Source: Eledone cirrhosa (lineage: Eukaryota). From it: a stretch of DNA of 64,000 nucleotides. Under the pieces are notes generated by a model that saw only the letters and a program-made list of their open reading frames with translations, searched no databases and was not told the origin of the DNA. Below are positions 4,361 through 64,000 of the stretch, in pieces; positions within the stretch are counted from its first letter, which is position 1; each line of letters starts with the position of its first letter. The position numbers and the translations under genes were made by a program. The DNA lies in contig OZ024743.1 in NCBI GenBank assembly GCA_964016885.1, positions 158,224,001-158,288,000 on the forward strand, in the 5' to 3' direction.

Positions 4361-5421
4361 GTCTAAGACTAAAGTTCTAGTTTGTAGGAAGGAAAATAGG
4401 GCACCGGTCCCATCTGGGAAATGGCCATGCTCAGTGTGTAGGAAAGGAGTAGGCAGAAACTCCATTTTATGTCCCAAATGCAAAGTATGGGTGCATAAAA
4501 GATGTAGTGGGATCACGGGTAAGCTAACTAAGAATATAGATTTTATATGTGGCCGGTGCTCTGGTGCAATAAGTAGCAGCAAGAGCCCACAGAATACTAG
4601 CTCATTCCATTGCACAGATGGTTCTATAGAAATAGTGGACAGCTTCCGTTACCTGGGTGACAAAATCAGCAGTGGGGGAGGGTGCTCTGAAAGTACAGTA
4701 GCTAGAGTCAGAACTGGATGGAAAAAGTTCAGAGAGCTTATACCACTATTGGCCGCTAAAGGTTCTCTCTAAAAATGAAAGGCAGGCTGTATGATGCCTG
4801 CATACGAACACCAATGTTACATGGCAGTGAGACCTGGGCATTCTGTGCAGAGGATATACGCAGACTGGAGAGAAACGAAGCTTGCATGCTCCGCTGGATG
4901 TGTAATAGTAATATATGTGAACAGCAAAGCATAAACGAACTCAGGGAGAAATTAGGAATAAGAGGGATCAGATGTTGTTTACTCGAGAGAAGACTACGTT
5001 GGTACGGTCACGTGATGTGCATGAAAGATGACAGCTGTATAAAAAGTGCAGGGCGATAAAAATAGACGGTAGCCACGGAGTAGGCAGACCCAGAAAAACC
5101 TGGGACGACTTGATAAATTCCGACCTCACACACTTACACCTCTCCAAGACAATGTCACTGGACCGAGATCTTTGGCGCTACACAGTTATACAGAAGACCC
5201 ACCTTGCCTAAGTACAAAGCGAAACCTACAGTCAGTAGGCACCTCTAACAAAATACACCCCCATCCCACTACCCCCACCCTATCCACACCACCCCCTTAA
5301 ATGTGAAGTTATGTTGGTACCACAACATCCAGTCCGAAACAAATGAGGTCGTGTAGGTGTCACAACAAAAAAACACAGTCCACACTGTAATGTGGCCGTG
5401 TAGGTAACACGGTAAAAACCT

Positions 5422-5423: not shown

Positions 5424-5471
<48 letters not shown>

Positions 5472-5647
5472 GGATCCGCTAAGGTGAAACAATTGTTCTC
5501 GGTATGGTGAACTAACTGTTGTGTAACCACTTCTACCTAACTCGTCCCATGGACTGAGTGCTCTACCACTACGGATATTACCTACCAGTGTTCTACCACT
5601 ATATATATATAAATATATATACATATAGGAAAATGTTTGACCCCGAC

Positions 5648-5729
5648 AGCAGAGCTCAAGCTGTTTCGACAGCTATTTCTGGACCGAAATAGAGTCCAGA
5701 AATAGTCATCGAAACAGCTTGAGCTCTGC
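5648..5729. repeat. Fold-back palindrome built from the 3' half of a hammerhead-like motif
   Basis: gcagagctcaagctgtttcga..ctatttctggac / gtccagaaatag..tcgaaacagcttgagctctgc. Confidence 0.8.
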
Positions 5730-5850
5730 CGTATATATATCGTGAATTGAAGTTCACAGGGGAGCAGGCATTCGATTCATGAACATCGCTGTTTGCCAGT
5801 TCCCTTGTCGCTTCAATTTTGGATTACCTCCTTGATTGTAACCTTATTAT

Positions 5851-5940
5851 GTAAGATGCTGTCTGATGAGATCATGGCACTGGGTACTACACCAAATCTT
5901 CTGGCCACTGTCATCATCGAAATATGTATCACAGCCTTAT
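5851..5940 (+). ncRNA. Type I hammerhead ribozyme
   Basis: stem I gctgt/acagc; CTGATGA 5863-5869; stem II gatcatggca/tgtcatcatc; GAAA 5919-5922; short stem III tatgta; NUH=ATC; aataaa just downstream. Confidence 0.78.
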
Positions 5941-6104
5941 CAATAAAGGACTTTATCATATAAACTTTGTATTTATGTTTTGTGTTTAATTTCATTGTTT
6001 TAATATTTCTATATATATATATATATAATATAATAGAAATATATATATATAGAAATATTATAACAATGAAATTAAACACAAAACTGTTAATTCATAGTGA
6101 AACA

Positions 6105-6242
6105 CATTATTTTACGATCGTTTCTGGGGGGTAGTCGTCTGAATGTTCATTCAATTATTGATCTATGTAAAACATATTACAAAATATCATAGTAAAAAAA
6201 AAATACATACGTCTTCACTACCCGCCGTCTTCAGAAATAATG
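6105..6242 (-). ncRNA. Type I hammerhead ribozyme
   Basis: minus strand: cattattt CTGAAGA c ggcgggtagt...actacccccc a GAAA cgatcg TA aaataatg; perfect 8-bp stem I, palindromic stem III, GUA site. Confidence 0.8.
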
Positions 6243-6367
6243 AGTTTTGTTTATTGAAGAATACAAATATACATATGAAGAAAAAACATACATATGAATA
6301 AGTAAGGTTTTATAACCAGGTTGAAATTGACTATTGTTAAGAATGGAAAGGGGCAGTATAAATCCTT

Positions 6368-6414
<47 letters not shown>

Positions 6415-6611
6415 GAGTATGTGTTGGTTGTTTACCGACACTTCAGTATGCAGGTTGGAGGACTCAATGAAGTGCACAGGTTGGTCTGTTTACTCCAGAA
6501 TAAACAGTTCCTTAAATGACTAACAACACACTCTGGATCTGAACACATCAATTAATTAACAAGGTAAAATCTATTACAACATTATGTTTTCGTGTTTTTT
6601 CTGTTCAAGTT

Positions 6612-6676
6612 CTTACAGCCTGATGAAGTCATAGCTGTTGAATAATGGCTATCACTGAAATATATATAGCAGTGAA
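6612..6676 (+). ncRNA. Degenerate type I hammerhead ribozyme
   Basis: ttacagc CTGATGA a gtcatagc...gctatcac t GAAA tatata TA gcagtga; mismatches in stems I and II. Confidence 0.6.
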
Positions 6677-6724
6677 TGTGAATAAGCAAAGCTAATTTTA
6701 CCCTATTGACTTACACTTCTTGTT

Positions 6725-6776
<52 letters not shown>

Positions 6777-6799
6777 CACAGTATACATACATACTTCCT

Positions 6800-8640
6800 T
6801 CATCATCATCATCATCATCATTTTTCATCCGCTTTTCCCCGCTTGCAAGGGTGGGACCGGTCTATTGAGCACAGCATCTCTCCACTTGTCACAGTCCTTC
6901 GTCATCTCCCCCGTGAGCTTCAGCGAGCTGAGGTCTGCTTTCACCACCTCTGCCCATGTTTTTCGTGGTCTTCCTTTACTGCGTCTTCCTTCTACTGGGA
7001 TTTCTTGGCACTTCTTTACCCAGCGGTCATCTTCCATCCACATCACATGGCCACACAAATGTCTTCTCTCCTGCACACTACAGTTTATTCCTCTTATACC
7101 CAGTTTCTCTCTCAACTCATCTATGCTTGGTCACTCACGCACATTGACATTACACATCCAATGGAGTATGCTTGCTTCATTTATCTCCAGCCGTCGCATA
7201 TCCTCTGTAGTTGCTGCCCATGTCTCACTACCATGCAGCATCGTGCATCTCACACAGGCATCATATAACCGGCCTTTCATATGCAGGGAGAAACCCTTCT
7301 TTGTCAACAAAGGAAGCAGCTCCCTAAACTTCTTCCAACCCGTCCTTATTCTAGATACTATGGCCTCGGAACACTCCTCTCTCGTGCTAATCTGATCAAC
7401 TAGGTACCGGAAGCTATCAACCACTTCTATAGAACCCACCTGCATTGGAAAAATGTGTCTATCACTGCGATTACTACTGTCAACTTTCTCTGTACATCTA
7501 CTCATACATAGTTTTCCCTACCTGTTAATTTGCCTGCTGTCCCATACATCTCTTGTGTACCCAAGATCTGCATTGCGTACATTTTATAAAATTTATGCCA
7601 GTTCCTCTCTTGCTTACTGAGATGTCACTGGCGACTAATCTATGCTGTGAGGTACACTTTTCCTCAGGGTATGCCTTAGTATTTGACACCTTCTGTCTGT
7701 CTCGCTGCCTAACTAGCAAGAAGTCAATCTGGCTTATGTACTCACCTGATTTGTAGGTTATTAGGTGGTTGGTAGGTTTCTTGAAGTTAGTGTTGCAAAT
7801 GGTTAGTGCACTTGCATCACAAAATTCAAGAAGCCTCACTCCTTCTTCATTTCTTCAGCCATAACCATGCTCACCATGTACCTCAGTGTATCCATCCTGG
7901 AGCTGCCCAACATGACCATTGAAGTCTCCTGCTAGCATAACGATGTCTCCATCCTCTGTCATTGTGACTGTTTGTAAAAGTTGCTCATAAAAGCAGTCTT
8001 TCTCTTCTTTACCTAGGCCTGCCTGGGGAGCATAGGTAGAGATGATTGTCAGTAGTCTCTTGTCTACAACTAATCTAAGCTTAATTATTCTATTACTAAC
8101 TCTAACTACCTCTATTGTCTTATCGATCCAGCTCTCAGCCAGTAAAATGCCTACGCCACCTAACCCATCATCATTACCCACCCAGAAAAGCTTATAACTA
8201 AGATGTTTGCCTGCGATTAGTCTTCCAGAGGCACCTCTCCATCTCACCTCTTGCACACAGCACACATCCACATGCCTTCTCTCCAGCATCTCCACTATCT
8301 CACCAGATCTACCCGTTAGAGTGCCAACATTAAGTGTGGCAACTCTGAGATGTGACGTCTTCATATTCTTGTCCTTGTTCCTGTTGTGCAATTGCTTGAT
8401 GACAGTCGGGGGGGGGGGGTTCTCACACATGGCCACACCAGCCACCCCACTACCGTGTGCAGCCCTAACATGGTTAGTGTTATTGCTGTTTACGCAGTTG
8501 CTGCAATTCTCATTTTTTGTGGTCATAGTTGTATATATACTGGTTGGATGCCCTTCCTAACACCAGAACCACTTTACAGCATGGACTGGGTGCTTTTATT
8601 TGTGCCACCAACACTAGAGAGGTTGTCTTACTGGACTTAG
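6800..8640 (-). mobile_element. Internally deleted RTE LINE (5' UTR, APE, PHD remnant, 3' end, (GAT)n tail)
   Basis: ATLNVGTL, CCVQEVRW, GDFNGHVG, IDFLLV, HRLV (APE); KCTQCRSWVHKRC; LHGSETW; GRPRKTW; RT core absent (deletion near 7612). Confidence 0.9.
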
Positions 8641-9009: not shown

Positions 9010-9102
9010 TGCTTACTGATGAGTTTTCAGCGTCTTAATTTTTTAATTAATTATCTTAAACAATATCTATTTCTTTGCTGGAATGAAACCGTGGTATAAG
9101 CA
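9010..9102 (+). ncRNA. Type I hammerhead ribozyme
   Basis: tgctta CTGATGA g ttttcagc...gctggaa t GAAA ccgtgg TA taagca; 6-bp stem I, GUA site. Confidence 0.8.
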
Positions 9103-35685: not shown

Positions 35686-35803
35686 CCAAAAGTTTGTTAC
35701 ATACATACATATGGCCGTCAGCTTTATTAATATATATATATATATATTAATAAAGTTGATGGCCATATGTATGTATGTATCTATGTATGTAACAAACTTT
35801 TGG
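35686..35803. repeat. Palindrome centred on (TA)n, abutting the Penelope-like element
   Basis: ccaaaagtttgttacatac..ggccgtcagctttattaat / attaataaagttgatggcc..gtatgtaacaaacttttgg. Confidence 0.85.
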
Positions 35804-36499
35804 GAGGGAGTGGAGGAAATCCAGTCAAGCGTTGAAAGTGAAAAATACAGCAGATTCTAAGGATAGTGTATAGAAGGTCAAAAAAGTATACTAGAGAAGG
35901 AGAGGGGGCGGGGTTGAAACAATAAGTAAATCTAGAGGGAGTAAACAGAAAAGCCATTATAAAAATGAGGAAATATATAAAAAATATATTAAAAAAATAT
36001 AAAATACAATTTCTGGTTACTACTCCCCTTCCACAATCACCAAATCTCTCACTGGTACTGCTAAGCTATAGAAAAGTTTAATAGGTGGGAAGGAATACTA
36101 AATACGAGATTGTAGTGAAAGAATTTTATGAGGCCATCATTACAGGGGTTCTACCACCACTACGATAGTTAGTAGTAATCAGCCAATGTTATCTTACAAT
36201 GACAGGTTAATAAGTTGAGGACCAACATACTAAAAAAAAAAAAAAACCTAATACGAAATATTAATTCAGAATCCCGAAACTAATACGAAATATTAATTCA
36301 GAAACCCGAAACATGAATACTAATACAATATATATAAAAGTACTGCTACAATACATAAATTCTAATACAATCTACATAAATACTCATTCAATATATATAA
36401 AAAACTAATACGAAATATTAATTCAGAATCCCCAAAAAATAAATACATATAAATACATATAAATACATACAAGAAACTAAAGCAGAAATACCACTAAGA
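35804..36499 (-). repeat. Inverted pseudo-LTR (left arm) of the Penelope-like element
   Basis: Reverse complement of 39079-39785 throughout, with small indels. Confidence 0.92.
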
Positions 36500-36590
36500 T
36501 ATAGCTCCTATTCCCGTAGTAGAGCATATTCCGACCCTACCACGCCTTATCCAGACTTTTTCGCTAAGCTCAAGCTCTTTCTCCCGCACC

Positions 36591-38725
36591 ATGCGAAAAC
36601 ACTACATCGACTTCTCCACCAAGAACATCCCAGTCCGACCGAGAAAACTTCGGATACTCACGCAAAAAATCGACCTCTTTGCGAAAAGACTAAGATGGAG
36701 AACTTTTTTCTACGACAGATATTGCGACAATCAGGACTTCGATACCAAGGAGAGATTCGGATTTAATACATACAAATCTCCCCCTCCGAACCCTATGCTC
36801 TCACCCTTCGAGGGTGACCTTTTCCAACTGGTCAAGAGCATTAAATTCAAACCCAGACACAACAGATTCCTACAAAAACTCCGTAGCAAATTAACATAGT
36901 ATGAAAACACCAACGACATCATGGTGCACTCGGATAAAACTGGTAACCTCTACTTCGTCAACCCCGACAGATACCACACACTGATCAGGAGCAGCCTAAA
37001 CTCCACCTATAAAGAAGGCTAACCACTCAAGCATCGAGGACATAAATCGAGATGGACAACAAATTACCTCCAGCCTCGGGGTCGCCGACCGCACTGAACC
37101 CCTAGACCCACGGACTCCCAACTTCGCACTGAAGGACCACAAATCCGACATCGTCCGTAAACCATCTATCAGGCTTATAAACCCAACGAAGTCCGACATA
37201 GGGAGAATCAGTAACAAAAATCCTAGACCGCGTTATACCAAAAGTTAAGCAAAACGCCAGACTTAGCCTATGGGTCAACACCCAGGAAGTAATCTCATGG
37301 TTCAGCAATATGGAAGACAAACGAGAGACAAAATTCATCCAGTTTGACATAGAGAGTTACTATGCTTCAATTACCTTACCGCTCCTTACGGCCGCCTTGG
37401 ACTTTGCCGAGACACACGCGCCCATCACCGACCAGGAAAGAAATATCATCCTCCACGCCAGGAAGACAGTCCTACTTTTCGACAACTCCAAATGGATAAA
37501 GAGAGCTCCCGACTCCCCCTTCGACGTCAGTATGGGCGACTGATTCGACTGAGGTCACAGATCTTATAGGATTATTCCTACTATTTAAACTCACCGATAT
37601 GTTTCCTGCATTCGGCGGTGGATTGTACCGTGATGATGGGCTCCTTACCCTCAAAGGGTACAACCCCAGTAGTACAGACCGAGTCCGTAAACAATTAATC
37701 AGCTTCTTCCGCCACTGGGGATTTAAAATAACCCTACAAACGTCCCTAACCCGAGTAAACTTCCTGGACGTTACCGTTAACCTCGATAACGATCTGTACT
37801 ACCCATACAGGAAACCAAACGACAACCTGCACTACATCCACCGCCGGTCGAACCATCCTAGAAACATCACCAATAACCTGGTTAAAAACATCTCCCTCCG
37901 CATATCTCGTTTGTCCGCTAATGAGCAGATATTCGAGGAACATGCGCCTTATTACAACCAGGCCCTCAAGCGGAGTGGCTTCCGGGAGGAAATATCCTAT
38001 TATCCAGCTTCTATTAGCGGAACCAGCAGACGACACCGCCGCTCACGCAACGTAACGTGGTTCAATCCTCCCCACAATGCCGAGGTGACAACACCTATCG
38101 GGAAAATCTTCTTTAGGCTCATCGAAAAAGACTTCCCACTACAACACCGCTATCACAACATAATCAACAAAAAACACCATCAAATTCTCCTACAGCACCA
38201 CACCTAACTTTGCACAAAACATCGTCTCCTCTACCAACAAAAAACTCAACCCCTATGGAAGAAATAACCTAGATAGCAGTGGAGAGCCGACCAGGAGGTG
38301 TAACTGTCCCGATGGATCCCTTTGCCCACTTGACAACAGATGCAGAGATCGTAATGTGATCTACCAGTGCAACGTGAGGACGGACACCTCCAACAAAGCT
38401 TATATAGGATTAACCGCTTGTGACTTCAAGACCCGGCTCTACCAACACAGACATACTTTCCAGAACCCGGCCCGGCGTCACGCCACTACACTTTCGGGCC
38501 ACATCTGGGACCTCAAAGATAATAATATAACCTACTATCTCACTTGGAGCTTACTGTCCAGAGCCAACTCTTACACGGGAGGACGCGGTCCGTGTAACTT
38601 ATGCTCGGGGGAAACATTATAAATACTGTTTTCGACGGACCAACTCCTAAACAAGAAAGACGAACTTGTAAATGCATGCAAACACAGATTGCGTAGGACT
38701 TACCTCGCCCTCAAACCCCATAATG
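36591..38725 (+). mobile_element. Penelope-like element ORF (RT + GIY-YIG), Naiad-type, disrupted
   Basis: IDFSTKNIP N-terminus, FIQFDIESYY, GLYRDDGL, VNFLDV, YIHRRSNHP, WFNPP, CNC..CPLDNRC, IYQC..YIGLT..FKTR..H, CNLC. Confidence 0.92.
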
Positions 38726-39078
38726 ACCCGGGGGGGGGGGGGGCGAGACAAGGGGTGAAACACCTCACTTGCCGACTTTGTAAGGGTTACCCCTAATTTT
38801 TTAATATATTTTTTAAATATATTTTTATCGTTTCCTCTATATTTCCTTCTTCCCCCCATCCCTTCCTAGTCCTTCCACCCCAGATCTCATTCTTTGTCGT
38901 CGTTCTTTTCACCTTCTCGCCCACCCCGATGCAGCCCTTCAATCCTCTGTAGCCTCAGTACCCCCCCCCCTTATTTTATGATAGAATTGGCCGATTCCGC
39001 TTTGTATAGCCTATGTGCTAGACCCCAGATACTTGCTTTCTTCTCTGGTTGCTGCCTCATTTCCGTGATTTCTAGATT

Positions 39079-39785
39079 TCTTAGTGGTATTTCTGCTTTA
39101 GTTTCTTGTATATTAGTATTTATTTTGGGGGGATTCTGAATTAATATTTCGTATTAGTTTTTTATATATATTGTACGAGTATCTATGTAGATTGTATTAG
39201 AATTTATGTATTGTAGCAGTATTTATATATATTGTATTAGTTTTTTTATATATATTGTATGAGTATTTATGTAGATTGTATTAGAATTTATGTATTGTCC
39301 AGTACTTTTATATATATTGTATTAGTATTCATGTTTCGGGATTCTGAATTAATATTTCGTATTAGGTTTTTTGTTTTTTAGTATGTTGGTCCTCAACTTA
39401 TTAACCTGTCATTGTAAGATAGCATTGGCTGATTACTACTAACTATCGTAGTGGCGGTATACCCCCTGTAATGATGGCCTCATAAAATTCTTTCACTACA
39501 ATCTCGTATTTAGTATTCCTTCCCACCTATTAAACTTTTCTATAGTACGAGTGAGAGATTTGATGATTGTGGAAGGGGAGTAGTAACCAGAAATTGTTTT
39601 TTATATTTTTTTTATATACTTTTTATATATTTCCTCATTTTTATAATGGCTTTTTTGTTTACTCCCTTTAGATTTACTTGTTTCAACCCCCTCCCCTTAT
39701 CTAGTATACTTTTTTCTATACACTATCCTTAGAATCTGCTGTATTTTTCACTTTCAACGCTTGACTGGGTTTCCTCCACTCCCTC
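39079..39785 (+). repeat. 3' pseudo-LTR (right arm) of the Penelope-like element
   Basis: Inverted copy at 35804-36499. Confidence 0.92.
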
Positions 39786-39915
39786 TCCCTCTTTCTTCTA
39801 CTGGCAAGTTCAGCTACCCCAACCTTCCACAAAATGCCATGATAGAATCATATGTCTTAACAACAAACTTTTGACCAATCCTTGTGACAATCACTTTTAC
39901 CATATATGGAATTAC

Positions 39916-39988
39916 CCCCTGAGAAGTTCGGCTATTCATTTACCAGGTTAAAAATTTTTATTTAGTCCAGAATTAGCCGTCGAAACGG
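39916..39988 (+). ncRNA. Degenerate hammerhead-like motif at the 3' end of the PLE, truncated by a SINE
   Basis: cccc CTGAGAA gttcggcta...tagccgtc GAAAC; core deviates from CUGANGA; 3' half similar to 5691-5720. Confidence 0.45.
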
Positions 39989-40310
39989 CACATGGCTTAG
40001 TGGTTAGAGCATTCGCCTTGCAATCGAAAGGTTGTGAGTTCAGTTCTCGGACCGGGTGATGTGTTGTTTCCTTGAGCAAGACACTTTATTTCACATTGCT
40101 CCAGTTTACTCAGCTGTAGAAATGAGGACTGGGATCCCTATCATTCCACTGTAAAGTGGTCATGGAGGTGCCACAGCAAAAAGGGACTCAGCACTCACTG
40201 TAAATGAGGTTGATGTTTGGAAGGGCATCCAGCTGTAGAAATCAAGCCAGAATCAGTTCCCACCATTGCAAGCAGAGAAAAGCGGATGTAAAATGATGAT
40301 GATGATGATA
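39987..40310 (+). mobile_element. tRNA-derived CORE/V-like SINE with RTE-derived 3' part and (GAT)n tail
   Basis: tggcttagtggttagagc A box, gagttcagttc B box, tccttgagcaagacactt core, ggaagggcatccagc motif, tail aaagcggatgtaaatgatgat. Confidence 0.8.
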
Positions 40311-63134: not shown

Positions 63135-63351
63135 GTAACATCAGAAATAGCAACAACAAAAACAACAACAATAACAGAAGAGTATCAATAACAGCAACCA
63201 CAGCAACAACAACAACAGCACAACAACAACAACAACAACAACAAAAACATCAGCAGCAACAACAACATCAGCACAACAACAACAACAACAGCAACAACAT
63301 CAGCAACATCAACAACAACAACATCAGCAACAACAGCAACAACAACAACAA

Positions 63352-63383
<32 letters not shown>

Positions 63384-63480
63384 ACAACAACAACAACAAC
63401 CGCAACAACAACAAAAACAACAACAGCAGCAGCAGCAGCAGCAACAACAACAACAACAACGACATCATCAGCAGCAGCAA

Positions 63481-63539
<59 letters not shown>

Positions 63540-63640
63540 GCAACAACAACAGCAACAACAACAACATCAGCAGCAGCAACACCAACGACAACAACATCAG
63601 CAACAGCAACAACAACAACGACAACAACAACAATAGCAAT

Positions 63641-63671
<31 letters not shown>

Positions 63672-63672
63672 G

Positions 63673-63707
<35 letters not shown>

Positions 63708-63792
63708 ACAACATTAACAACAGCAACAACAACAATATCATCAACAACAACAGCAACAACATCATCAACAACAACATCATCAACAACAACAG

Positions 63793-63840
<48 letters not shown>

Positions 63841-63918
63841 TAACAACAGCAACAACAACAATATCATCAACAACAACAGCAACAACATCATCAACAACAA
63901 CATCATCAACAACAACAG

Positions 63919-63965
<47 letters not shown>

Positions 63966-64000
63966 GCAACAACAGCAACAACAGCAACAACAACAACATC
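63135..64000. repeat. Long (AAC/AGC/ATC)n trinucleotide array
   Basis: continuous triplet register; 126-bp higher-order duplication (63711 vs 63837). Confidence 0.95.

What the first reader, a model, noticed from the sequence alone, without database searches (positions are those of the whole stretch)
5636..6700. Four hammerhead-ribozyme-like motifs packed into 1.1 kb between (TA)n tracts
Type I hammerheads lie at 5851-5940 (+), 6105-6242 (-) and 6612-6676 (+), with a fold-back half-ribozyme at 5648-5729. Each sits in its own short non-coding block bounded by (TA)n, and their stem sequences differ, so this is not a tandem duplication. The short palindromic stem III is typical of Penelope pLTR and retrozyme hammerheads. 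This suggests several independent ribozyme-bearing non-autonomous families repeatedly using one (TA)n site.
Basis: partly seen in the sequence, partly recalled or inferred. Interest (0 to 1): 0.75.

Follow-up and report, generated by a model that had tools for sequence, protein, structure and literature searches.

The report
Pile of Penelope jumping-gene tail ends
The hammerhead-shaped RNA motifs are real, but they are the ordinary cut-short tail ends of five different Penelope-like jumping-gene families that likely landed one after another in the same TA-repeat stretch, in a genome that carries such a motif about every 13 kilobases.

Summary
Besides three complete type I hammerheads and the fold-back half, there is a second half-hammerhead (5471-5507) and a 34-nt end of family D (5976-6009). 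Each block belongs to its own dispersed high-copy family (400-2,975 first-look candidates), with two alternative 3' ends running into (TA)n. The reading 'non-autonomous families' is mostly wrong. In longer copies, blocks A, B, D and E lie about 170, 690-830, 640 and 1,100-1,200 nt behind a GIY-YIG endonuclease gene with the motifs of the Hydra clade of Penelope-like elements. That clade is published with (TA)n targeting, such hammerheads and an octopus member (PMC8557442). Only family C looks non-autonomous: a 1.2-1.7 kb unit without a gene that shares hammerhead, 3' end and tail with a coding family. Background is high: 30 dispersed motifs in 390 kb of blind-picked DNA. Five families within 1.26 kb is an upper-tail pile-up, not a system. 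Cleavage and transcription were not tested. The scan noted many hammerhead-Penelope loci in this genome before.

The parts
5424..5471 (.). (TA)24 tract, left boundary
5471..5600 (+). Family A 3' end, cut inside the hammerhead core (AGGA left of CUGAGGA; GAAA 5486-5489, stem III ACAATTGT, predicted cut after U5497), with the about 65-nt tail
   Evidence: nearest copies 98% identical; endonuclease end about 150 nt upstream of the block in longer copies
5601..5626 (.). TA-rich spacer
5627..5732 (-). Family B head-to-head fold-back of two 5'-truncated 3' ends. Each arm has GAAA, a 5-bp stem III with palindromic loop, and UH; the 5' core strand is missing. Intact copies have a U3-A8 core
5741..5975 (+). 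Family C 3' end with complete hammerhead (stem I 5858-5862/5931-5935, core 5863-5869, GAAA 5919-5922, predicted cut after C5930); last about 8 nt of the family end missing
5976..6009 (+). 34-nt 3' end of a second family D copy fused to C; the exact-match pattern for this junction occurs only here in the genome
6010..6050 (.). Interrupted (TA)n tract between converging 3' ends
6051..6371 (-). Family D 3' end with complete hammerhead (core 6234-6228, long stem II loop, C-A at the base of stem II, stem III ACGATCGT, predicted cut after 6113)
   Evidence: endonuclease end about 640 nt upstream of the GAAA in 13 of 24 copies
6372..6409 (.). (TA)19 tract
6410..6503 (-). Inverted family E tail (about 95 nt)
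6504..6726 (+). Family E 3' end with complete hammerhead (core 6620-6626, GAAA 6657-6660, predicted cut after A6668). One stem I pair is broken in this copy (A-A; T-A in 38 of 42 copies)
6728..6776 (.). (AC)n(AT)n tract, right boundary

Best explanation
The 1.26-kb stretch is a stack of six cut-short 3' ends from five Penelope-like retroelement families, each ending in a TA repeat, likely inserted one after another by target-primed reverse transcription that stopped early. Shown: each block is one of hundreds to thousands of dispersed copies. Copies end at two fixed sites 65-145 nt apart and run into (TA)n. Inverted 5'-truncated partners are common. Four families lie behind a GIY-YIG endonuclease gene with Hydra-clade motifs, and the fifth (C) is a gene-less unit that shares its hammerhead, end and tail with such a family. 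Inferred from published work on Penelope-like elements: the endonuclease, probably guided by its CxCX5C linker, cuts (TA)n; the reverse transcriptase starts just 3' of the hammerhead at two internal sites, so even very short copies keep all or half of the ribozyme; copying from both broken ends gives the inverted arms (B, E); every insertion leaves TA at its ends, a fresh target for the next. The hammerheads were selected in the source elements. Here they are likely passive, decaying copies without a function of their own.
For: Copy number: first-look candidates C 2,518, D 1,373, E 2,975, B 1,951, A 400 (40 scored each); a 35-nt B pattern has 1,240 exact matches, reversed control 0. Gene linkage on the same strand: D 13 of 24 loci, mostly 620-680 nt; B 10 of 30, mostly 685-833 nt; A 2 of 19 at 169-170 nt, plus inverted arms and L147 at similar spacing; E 17 of 24 loci chosen by the gene end show the E block about 1,000-1,100 nt behind it (9 of 24 with an exact motif). 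The five endonucleases are 30-50% identical to each other, so these are separate families. Hydra motifs RWR, DKT, YRDD, CxCX5C, YIG, CxxC and CxH occur in the 682-aa B-family frame; CxCX5C also in A, D, E and intact C-partner copies. Two 3' ends followed by TA in A, B, D, E. Nearest copies differ in identity (A 98%, D 93%, B 92%, C 90-93%, E 87-92%), and the C/D junction pattern is unique, which fits separate events. Core positions are more conserved than unpaired flanks in all five families, while N7 varies freely in A, B, C. Published Hydra hammerheads have the same build, including a U-U or U-C pair at the base of stem II and H17 = A, C or U (PMC8557442 File S2).
Against: Five of my probe families within 1.3 kb was not matched elsewhere: at most 2 in 40 blind-picked 10-kb stretches, and 2 in 13 of 120 family-selected loci, none with 3. 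The probes were chosen from this locus, which inflates the contrast. A permutation test found no excess of different-family neighbours (2 observed, mean 0.78, 675 of 2,000 shuffles as high), so 'insertions seed further insertions' is not shown. Pfam gave only a weak GIY-YIG match (E 0.013) for the D protein and none for the A and B proteins; clade assignment rests on motifs, not on a tree. No target-site duplication or pre-insertion allele was seen. Many copies were picked by similarity to the window, which biases conservation counts.
Confidence: 0.9

Rival explanations
1. All blocks are short non-autonomous, retrozyme-like families that move as small (circular) RNAs and share a target.
For: Most copies are short and lack a gene: 0 of 29 C loci and 0 of 24 E loci picked by the 3' block show own-family linkage within the 1.5-kb flank. 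Family C is gene-less and head-to-tail. True tandem hammerhead arrays exist in this genome (468-nt unit, L347).
Against: A, B, D and E continue upstream into endonuclease genes at family-specific distances. Their 5' ends are ragged, not unit-length. No 170-400 nt tandem monomer occurs at this locus.
Confidence: 0.06
2. The stack has been co-opted as a local RNA-processing cassette: convergent C and D hammerheads or dimers cut transcripts passing through.
For: Three motifs keep all core nucleotides, whereas only 35 of 64 C, 32 of 35 D and 31 of 42 E copies do. Stem III palindromes could pair in trans (duplex -2.2 to -10 kcal/mol).
Against: The three palindromes differ, so the neighbours cannot form the usual homodimer with each other, and D is on the other strand. 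E has a broken stem I pair. A and B lack core strands. Intact cores are the majority state in all three families.
Confidence: 0.03
3. Chance motifs in AT-rich DNA or an assembly artefact.
For: Microsatellite-rich, repetitive region; Rfam lists no hammerhead match.
Against: 0 of 2,000 shuffles give a hit; 0, 0 and 1 hits in three shuffles of 400 kb against 49 observed; each block has many genomic copies.
Confidence: 0.01

Closest known systems
Hydra-clade Penelope-like elements, incl. Hydra-1_Obim of Octopus bimaculoides (Craig et al. 2021, PMC8557442; passages, sections 6 and 11, supplement part 2 of 59 read)
   Same: C-terminal GIY-YIG, RW(K/R), DKT, CxCX5C linker, CxxC and CxH motifs, (TA)n targets, hammerhead near the 3' end with palindromic stem III, 5' truncation, inverted partners, tail at one end.
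   Different: The hammerhead listed for Hydra-1_Obim differs from all five here, so these are other families (whole sequences not compared). 3' UTRs are longer (up to about 1.2 kb). Tails are 65-145 nt against the 30-40 bp stated for PLEs. Family B has a U3-A8 core, not listed among the Hydra rows I saw.
Minimal hammerheads of metazoan PLEs (Cervera and de la Pena 2014, PMC4209133; parts 1-2 of 4 read)
   Same: Thousands of dispersed single motifs from truncated PLEs, many families per genome, pairs 100-700 bp apart on opposite strands, long helix II, palindromic helix III for dimer action, U3-A8 core variant (Schistosoma Cercyon).
   Different: Different phylum and clade. Family B has a 5-bp stem III that could fold as a monomer.
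Anolis Poseidon PLE mechanism (Frangieh et al. 2024, PMC11167929; parts 1-2 of 4 read)
   Same: Two internal reverse-transcription start sites explain two 3' ends and the tail; AT-rich cutting.
   Different: There the hammerhead overlaps the start of the gene and needs protein; it was not required for insertion in vitro. Not tested for Hydra elements.
Metazoan non-LTR retrozymes (PMC7229834, passages; bioRxiv 10.64898/2026.07.22.740005, part 1 of 5) and non-autonomous Chlamys elements (PMC8557442, passage)
   Same: Family C is gene-less, head-to-tail, carries one type I hammerhead per unit and shares its 3' end with a coding PLE.
   Different: The C unit is 1.2-1.7 kb, not 170-400 nt; copies are mostly truncated singles; circular RNA not shown.

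Membership tests
Type I hammerhead ribozyme | Core CUGANGA / GAAA / UH with helices I-III | tested here: met
   Met for blocks C, D, E; A and B in the window are halves, complete in 10 of 16 and 28 of 33 other copies
Type I hammerhead ribozyme | G10.1-C11.1 pair at the base of stem II | tested here: inconclusive
   Present in C and B; G-U or A-U in E, C-A in D, U-U in A. Similar departures occur in published Hydra motifs
Type I hammerhead ribozyme | Compensatory changes in stems | tested here: met
   Between subfamilies: D stem II three G-C pairs become A-T/T-A in 7-8 of 35 copies; C stem II T-A becomes G-C in 10 of 64; core 3-8 pair is U-A in 31 of 33 B copies. Few independent events; no tree-aware test
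Type I hammerhead ribozyme | Self-cleavage at the UH site | not testable with these tools
   Needs in vitro assay
Hydra-clade Penelope-like element | Single RT gene with C-terminal GIY-YIG endonuclease upstream of the hammerhead | tested here: met
   A, B, D, E; a full RT-EN frame was read only for B (682 aa); Pfam support weak
Hydra-clade Penelope-like element | RWK, DKT, CxCX5C, CxxC, CxH motifs | tested here: met
   All in the B family, with RWR for RWK; endonuclease motifs in A, D, E and the C partner
Hydra-clade Penelope-like element | (TA)n insertion preference | tested here: met
   19 of 21 insertions against 16% background
Hydra-clade Penelope-like element | 5' truncation, inverted partner, tail at one end | tested here: met
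Hydra-clade Penelope-like element | Phylogenetic placement of the RT in the Hydra clade | not tested
   No tree built with published Hydra sequences
Non-LTR retrozyme | Tandem monomers of about 170-400 nt, each with a hammerhead | tested here: not met
   No such repeat at the locus; A, B, D, E are gene 3' UTRs; the C unit is 1.2-1.7 kb
Non-LTR retrozyme | Abundant circular RNA | not testable with these tools
   No RNA holder listed
Non-autonomous PLE derivative (family C) | No gene in the unit; 3' end shared with an autonomous family; head-to-tail pseudo-LTR | tested here: met
   Longest open frame 81-129 aa and 0 tblastn hits in 4 of 4 units; tail runs into the unit start in L302, L304, L305, L310 and hammerhead-to-hammerhead in L294; 72-79% identity to the 3' UTR behind the L263 endonuclease (one such locus examined)

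The most novel reading that the evidence does not exclude
Family C is an undescribed 1.2-1.7 kb gene-less Hydra-clade element that keeps hammerhead, 3' end and tail of a coding partner and is excised by hammerhead-to-hammerhead cleavage as a long circular RNA: an intermediate between a PLE deletion derivative and a retrozyme. With the other families it would make TA tracts self-renewing landing pads that help inflate cephalopod microsatellite content.
Probability: 0.2. Interest if true: 0.45.

Novelty: new member of a known kind. Interest (0 to 1): 0.22.

Why it matters
As a locus it matters little: it is retroelement debris of a published kind. As a by-product it shows that Hydra-clade Penelope-like elements, known from one octopus family in PMC8557442, are diverse and very abundant in this genome: at least five families, roughly 15,000-100,000 insertions each for A, B, D, E by crude extrapolation from 21 hits in 400 kb. 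It also shows that the most abundant family (B) uses a U3-A8 core that CUGANGA descriptors miss. Family C is a clean example of a gene-less element sharing its ribozyme-bearing end with a coding partner, useful for testing how such elements are mobilised.

Tried and rejected
Rfam scan: no hammerhead family among 35 matches at E<=10; not informative for minimal motifs. Free-energy folding of single motifs did not give hammerhead folds, expected for dimer-type stem III and not used. Search for intact B copies with a canonical CUGANGA core 15-45 nt upstream gave 25 mixed chance juxtapositions; the real core is UUGANAA. My first idea that C and D share a 3' end because they share a partner was rejected: the junction pattern matches only the window and other C copies end differently. 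PLE gene fragments next to C copies in L012, L023 and L257 lie downstream and were not taken as linkage; L257 is a different PLE type. Clustering of different families beyond chance: not significant in 400 kb. Literature: four answered searches; the four-term search cephalopod + hammerhead + Penelope + Hydra listed only PMC8557442; no paper describing these particular families was seen, but Repbase, Dfam and the Octopus vulgaris repeat library (PMC13282606, passages only) were not checked and may hold them. Supplements of the bioRxiv retrozyme preprint were not seen.

Full report
Setting. The window lies on contig C4 of a 3.0-Gb animal assembly. Its repeats and (TA)n content look octopus-like; that label is my inference and also appears in earlier scan notes. 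The stretch sits between two LINE fragments (RTE-like, name recalled) at about 4400-5420 (+) and 6790-8400 (-).

Observation. None appear in 2,000 shuffles of the span or 40 shuffles of the window. The hairpin at 5627-5732 consists of two inverted 3' halves. Reading the sequence showed one more half-motif at 5471-5507 and a 34-nt copy of block D's 3' end fused behind block C. I named the families A to E from left to right.

Copy number and anatomy. Each block retrieved many dispersed copies: 2,518 (C), 1,373 (D), 2,975 (E), 1,951 (B) and 400 (A) first-look candidates, 40 scored each. Copies share a sharp 3' end and ragged 5' ends. Each family has a short end and a long end (tail about 65 nt in A, 80 in B and C, 97 in E, about 145 in D), both running into (TA)n or another microsatellite, and inverted 5'-truncated partners are frequent (the C tail pattern caught only 1 copy, so C rests). 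Block E is an inverted tail plus body. Block B is a minimal head-to-head pair whose two arms share copy-specific variants in several loci, as expected if both were copied from one RNA. These are the PLE hallmarks in PMC8557442 section 6, and the two ends fit the two internal start sites shown for an Anolis PLE (PMC11167929).

Link to genes. Longer copies run upstream into a GIY-YIG endonuclease frame on the same strand: D in 13 of 24 loci, B in 10 of 30, A in 2 of 19 (more in inverted arms). For E, 0 of 24 loci picked by the 3' block showed it within the 1.5-kb flank, but 17 of 24 loci picked by the gene end of L130 carried block E about 1.0-1.1 kb behind it. The five endonucleases (four linked, plus C's partner) are 30-50% identical. 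The B family gave a 682-aa stop-free frame with DKT, YRDD, CxCX5C, YIG, CxxC and CxH, and RWR in the overlapping upstream frame. These are the features that define the Hydra clade, almost all of whose families insert in (TA)n and carry canonical hammerheads. Its table lists Hydra-1_Obim from Octopus bimaculoides, and its hammerheads show the same palindromic stem III, U-U or U-C at the stem II base and H17 = A, C or U. Pfam support is weak: GIY-YIG at E 0.013 for D, nothing for A and B. No tree was built.

Family C. 0 of 29 C loci showed gene linkage. Walking upstream gave a non-coding unit of 1.2-1.7 kb whose start is preceded by C's own tail (L302, L304, L305, L310) and which returns to a second hammerhead (L294, L287). 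Four of four units have no open frame over 129 aa and no tblastn hit to PLE proteins. The 3' UTR behind a Hydra-type endonuclease in L263 matches C's hammerhead at 72-75% and its end and tail at 79%. C is therefore best read as a non-autonomous derivative of that family; this rests on one partner locus.

Are the hammerheads real motifs? Across 64, 35, 42, 16 and 33 distinct copies (C, D, E, A, B; identical rows dropped, five window-derived loci left out, only copies covering the motif), core positions are 95-99% conserved against 85-93% for unpaired flanks, and N7 varies in A, B and C. Subfamilies show both-side changes in stem II of C and D, a few events rather than many. Family B has U3-A8 in 31 of 33 copies, a variant already reported for Schistosoma PLEs (PMC4209133). 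That paper also reports that such motifs are mostly single, probably from truncated PLEs, sometimes 100-700 bp apart on opposite strands, and cleave weakly and only as dimers. In the window the three full motifs have different palindromes, E has a broken stem I pair, and A and B lack core strands, so activity here is unlikely to be high (inference).

How unusual is the pile-up? In 40 stretches of 10 kb picked by round coordinates the descriptor found 49 motifs, 19 of them in one tandem array, against 0, 0 and 1 in three shuffles: about one dispersed motif per 13 kb, not counting family B. Six of 40 stretches had two or more within 900 nt, and two had three (the array, and L335 with an inverted pair plus one more). 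With my five probes, 21 insertions were found; 19 lay next to (TA)n (background 16%); at most two families shared 1.3 kb; 13 of 120 family-selected loci held two families and none three. So five families in 1.26 kb is in the upper tail, with the caveat that the probes came from this locus. The sample holds 633 (TA)6+ tracts, so rare pile-ups are expected somewhere in 3 Gb. A permutation test showed no significant clustering. Different identities to nearest copies (87-98%) and a unique C/D junction point to separate insertions at different times.

Verdict. Real motifs, ordinary origin: truncated ends of Hydra-clade Penelope-like elements in their preferred target. Families appear undescribed in the papers searched, but the kind, the target, the ribozyme and an octopus member are published. 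The scan has 975 notes in this genome that fit 'hammerhead Penelope'. Interest 0.22; the gene-less family C is the only thread worth following.

Noticed in passing
window 35800-39990: Near full-length decayed copy of the family B element: frameshifted RT-endonuclease gene 36695-38736 (+), 82-91% identical in protein to the L137 frame, 3' UTR reaching its hammerhead at about 39910-39989 where another repeat cuts it, and an inverted 3' UTR arm at about 35800-36450.
   Followed up: partly
window 9011-9101 (+): Lone complete type I hammerhead (stem III ACCGTGGT) in AT-rich DNA; no match among fetched loci; family unknown.
   Followed up: partly
   Followed up: no
L171-L200 (family B copies): U3-A8 core with a 5-bp stem III closed by a palindromic GAGCTC loop; the most abundant family in the sample (14 of 21 insertions) and invisible to CUGANGA descriptors.
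   Followed up: partly
L081-L105 (family B hairpins): Many fold-backs turn inside the stem II region, giving near-identical hairpins of about 120 bp; may mark a preferred stall site of reverse transcription, but these loci were selected by similarity to the hairpin.
   Followed up: no
L257:1673-5600 (-), L135, L145, L041: Other PLE types (canonical RYLDD / GIY-YIG frames) sit directly next to Hydra-type ends in TA tracts.
   Followed up: no
window 63151-63998: Long (CAA)n-rich tract of about 284 units, possibly part of a low-complexity coding region or PLE N-terminus.
   Followed up: no
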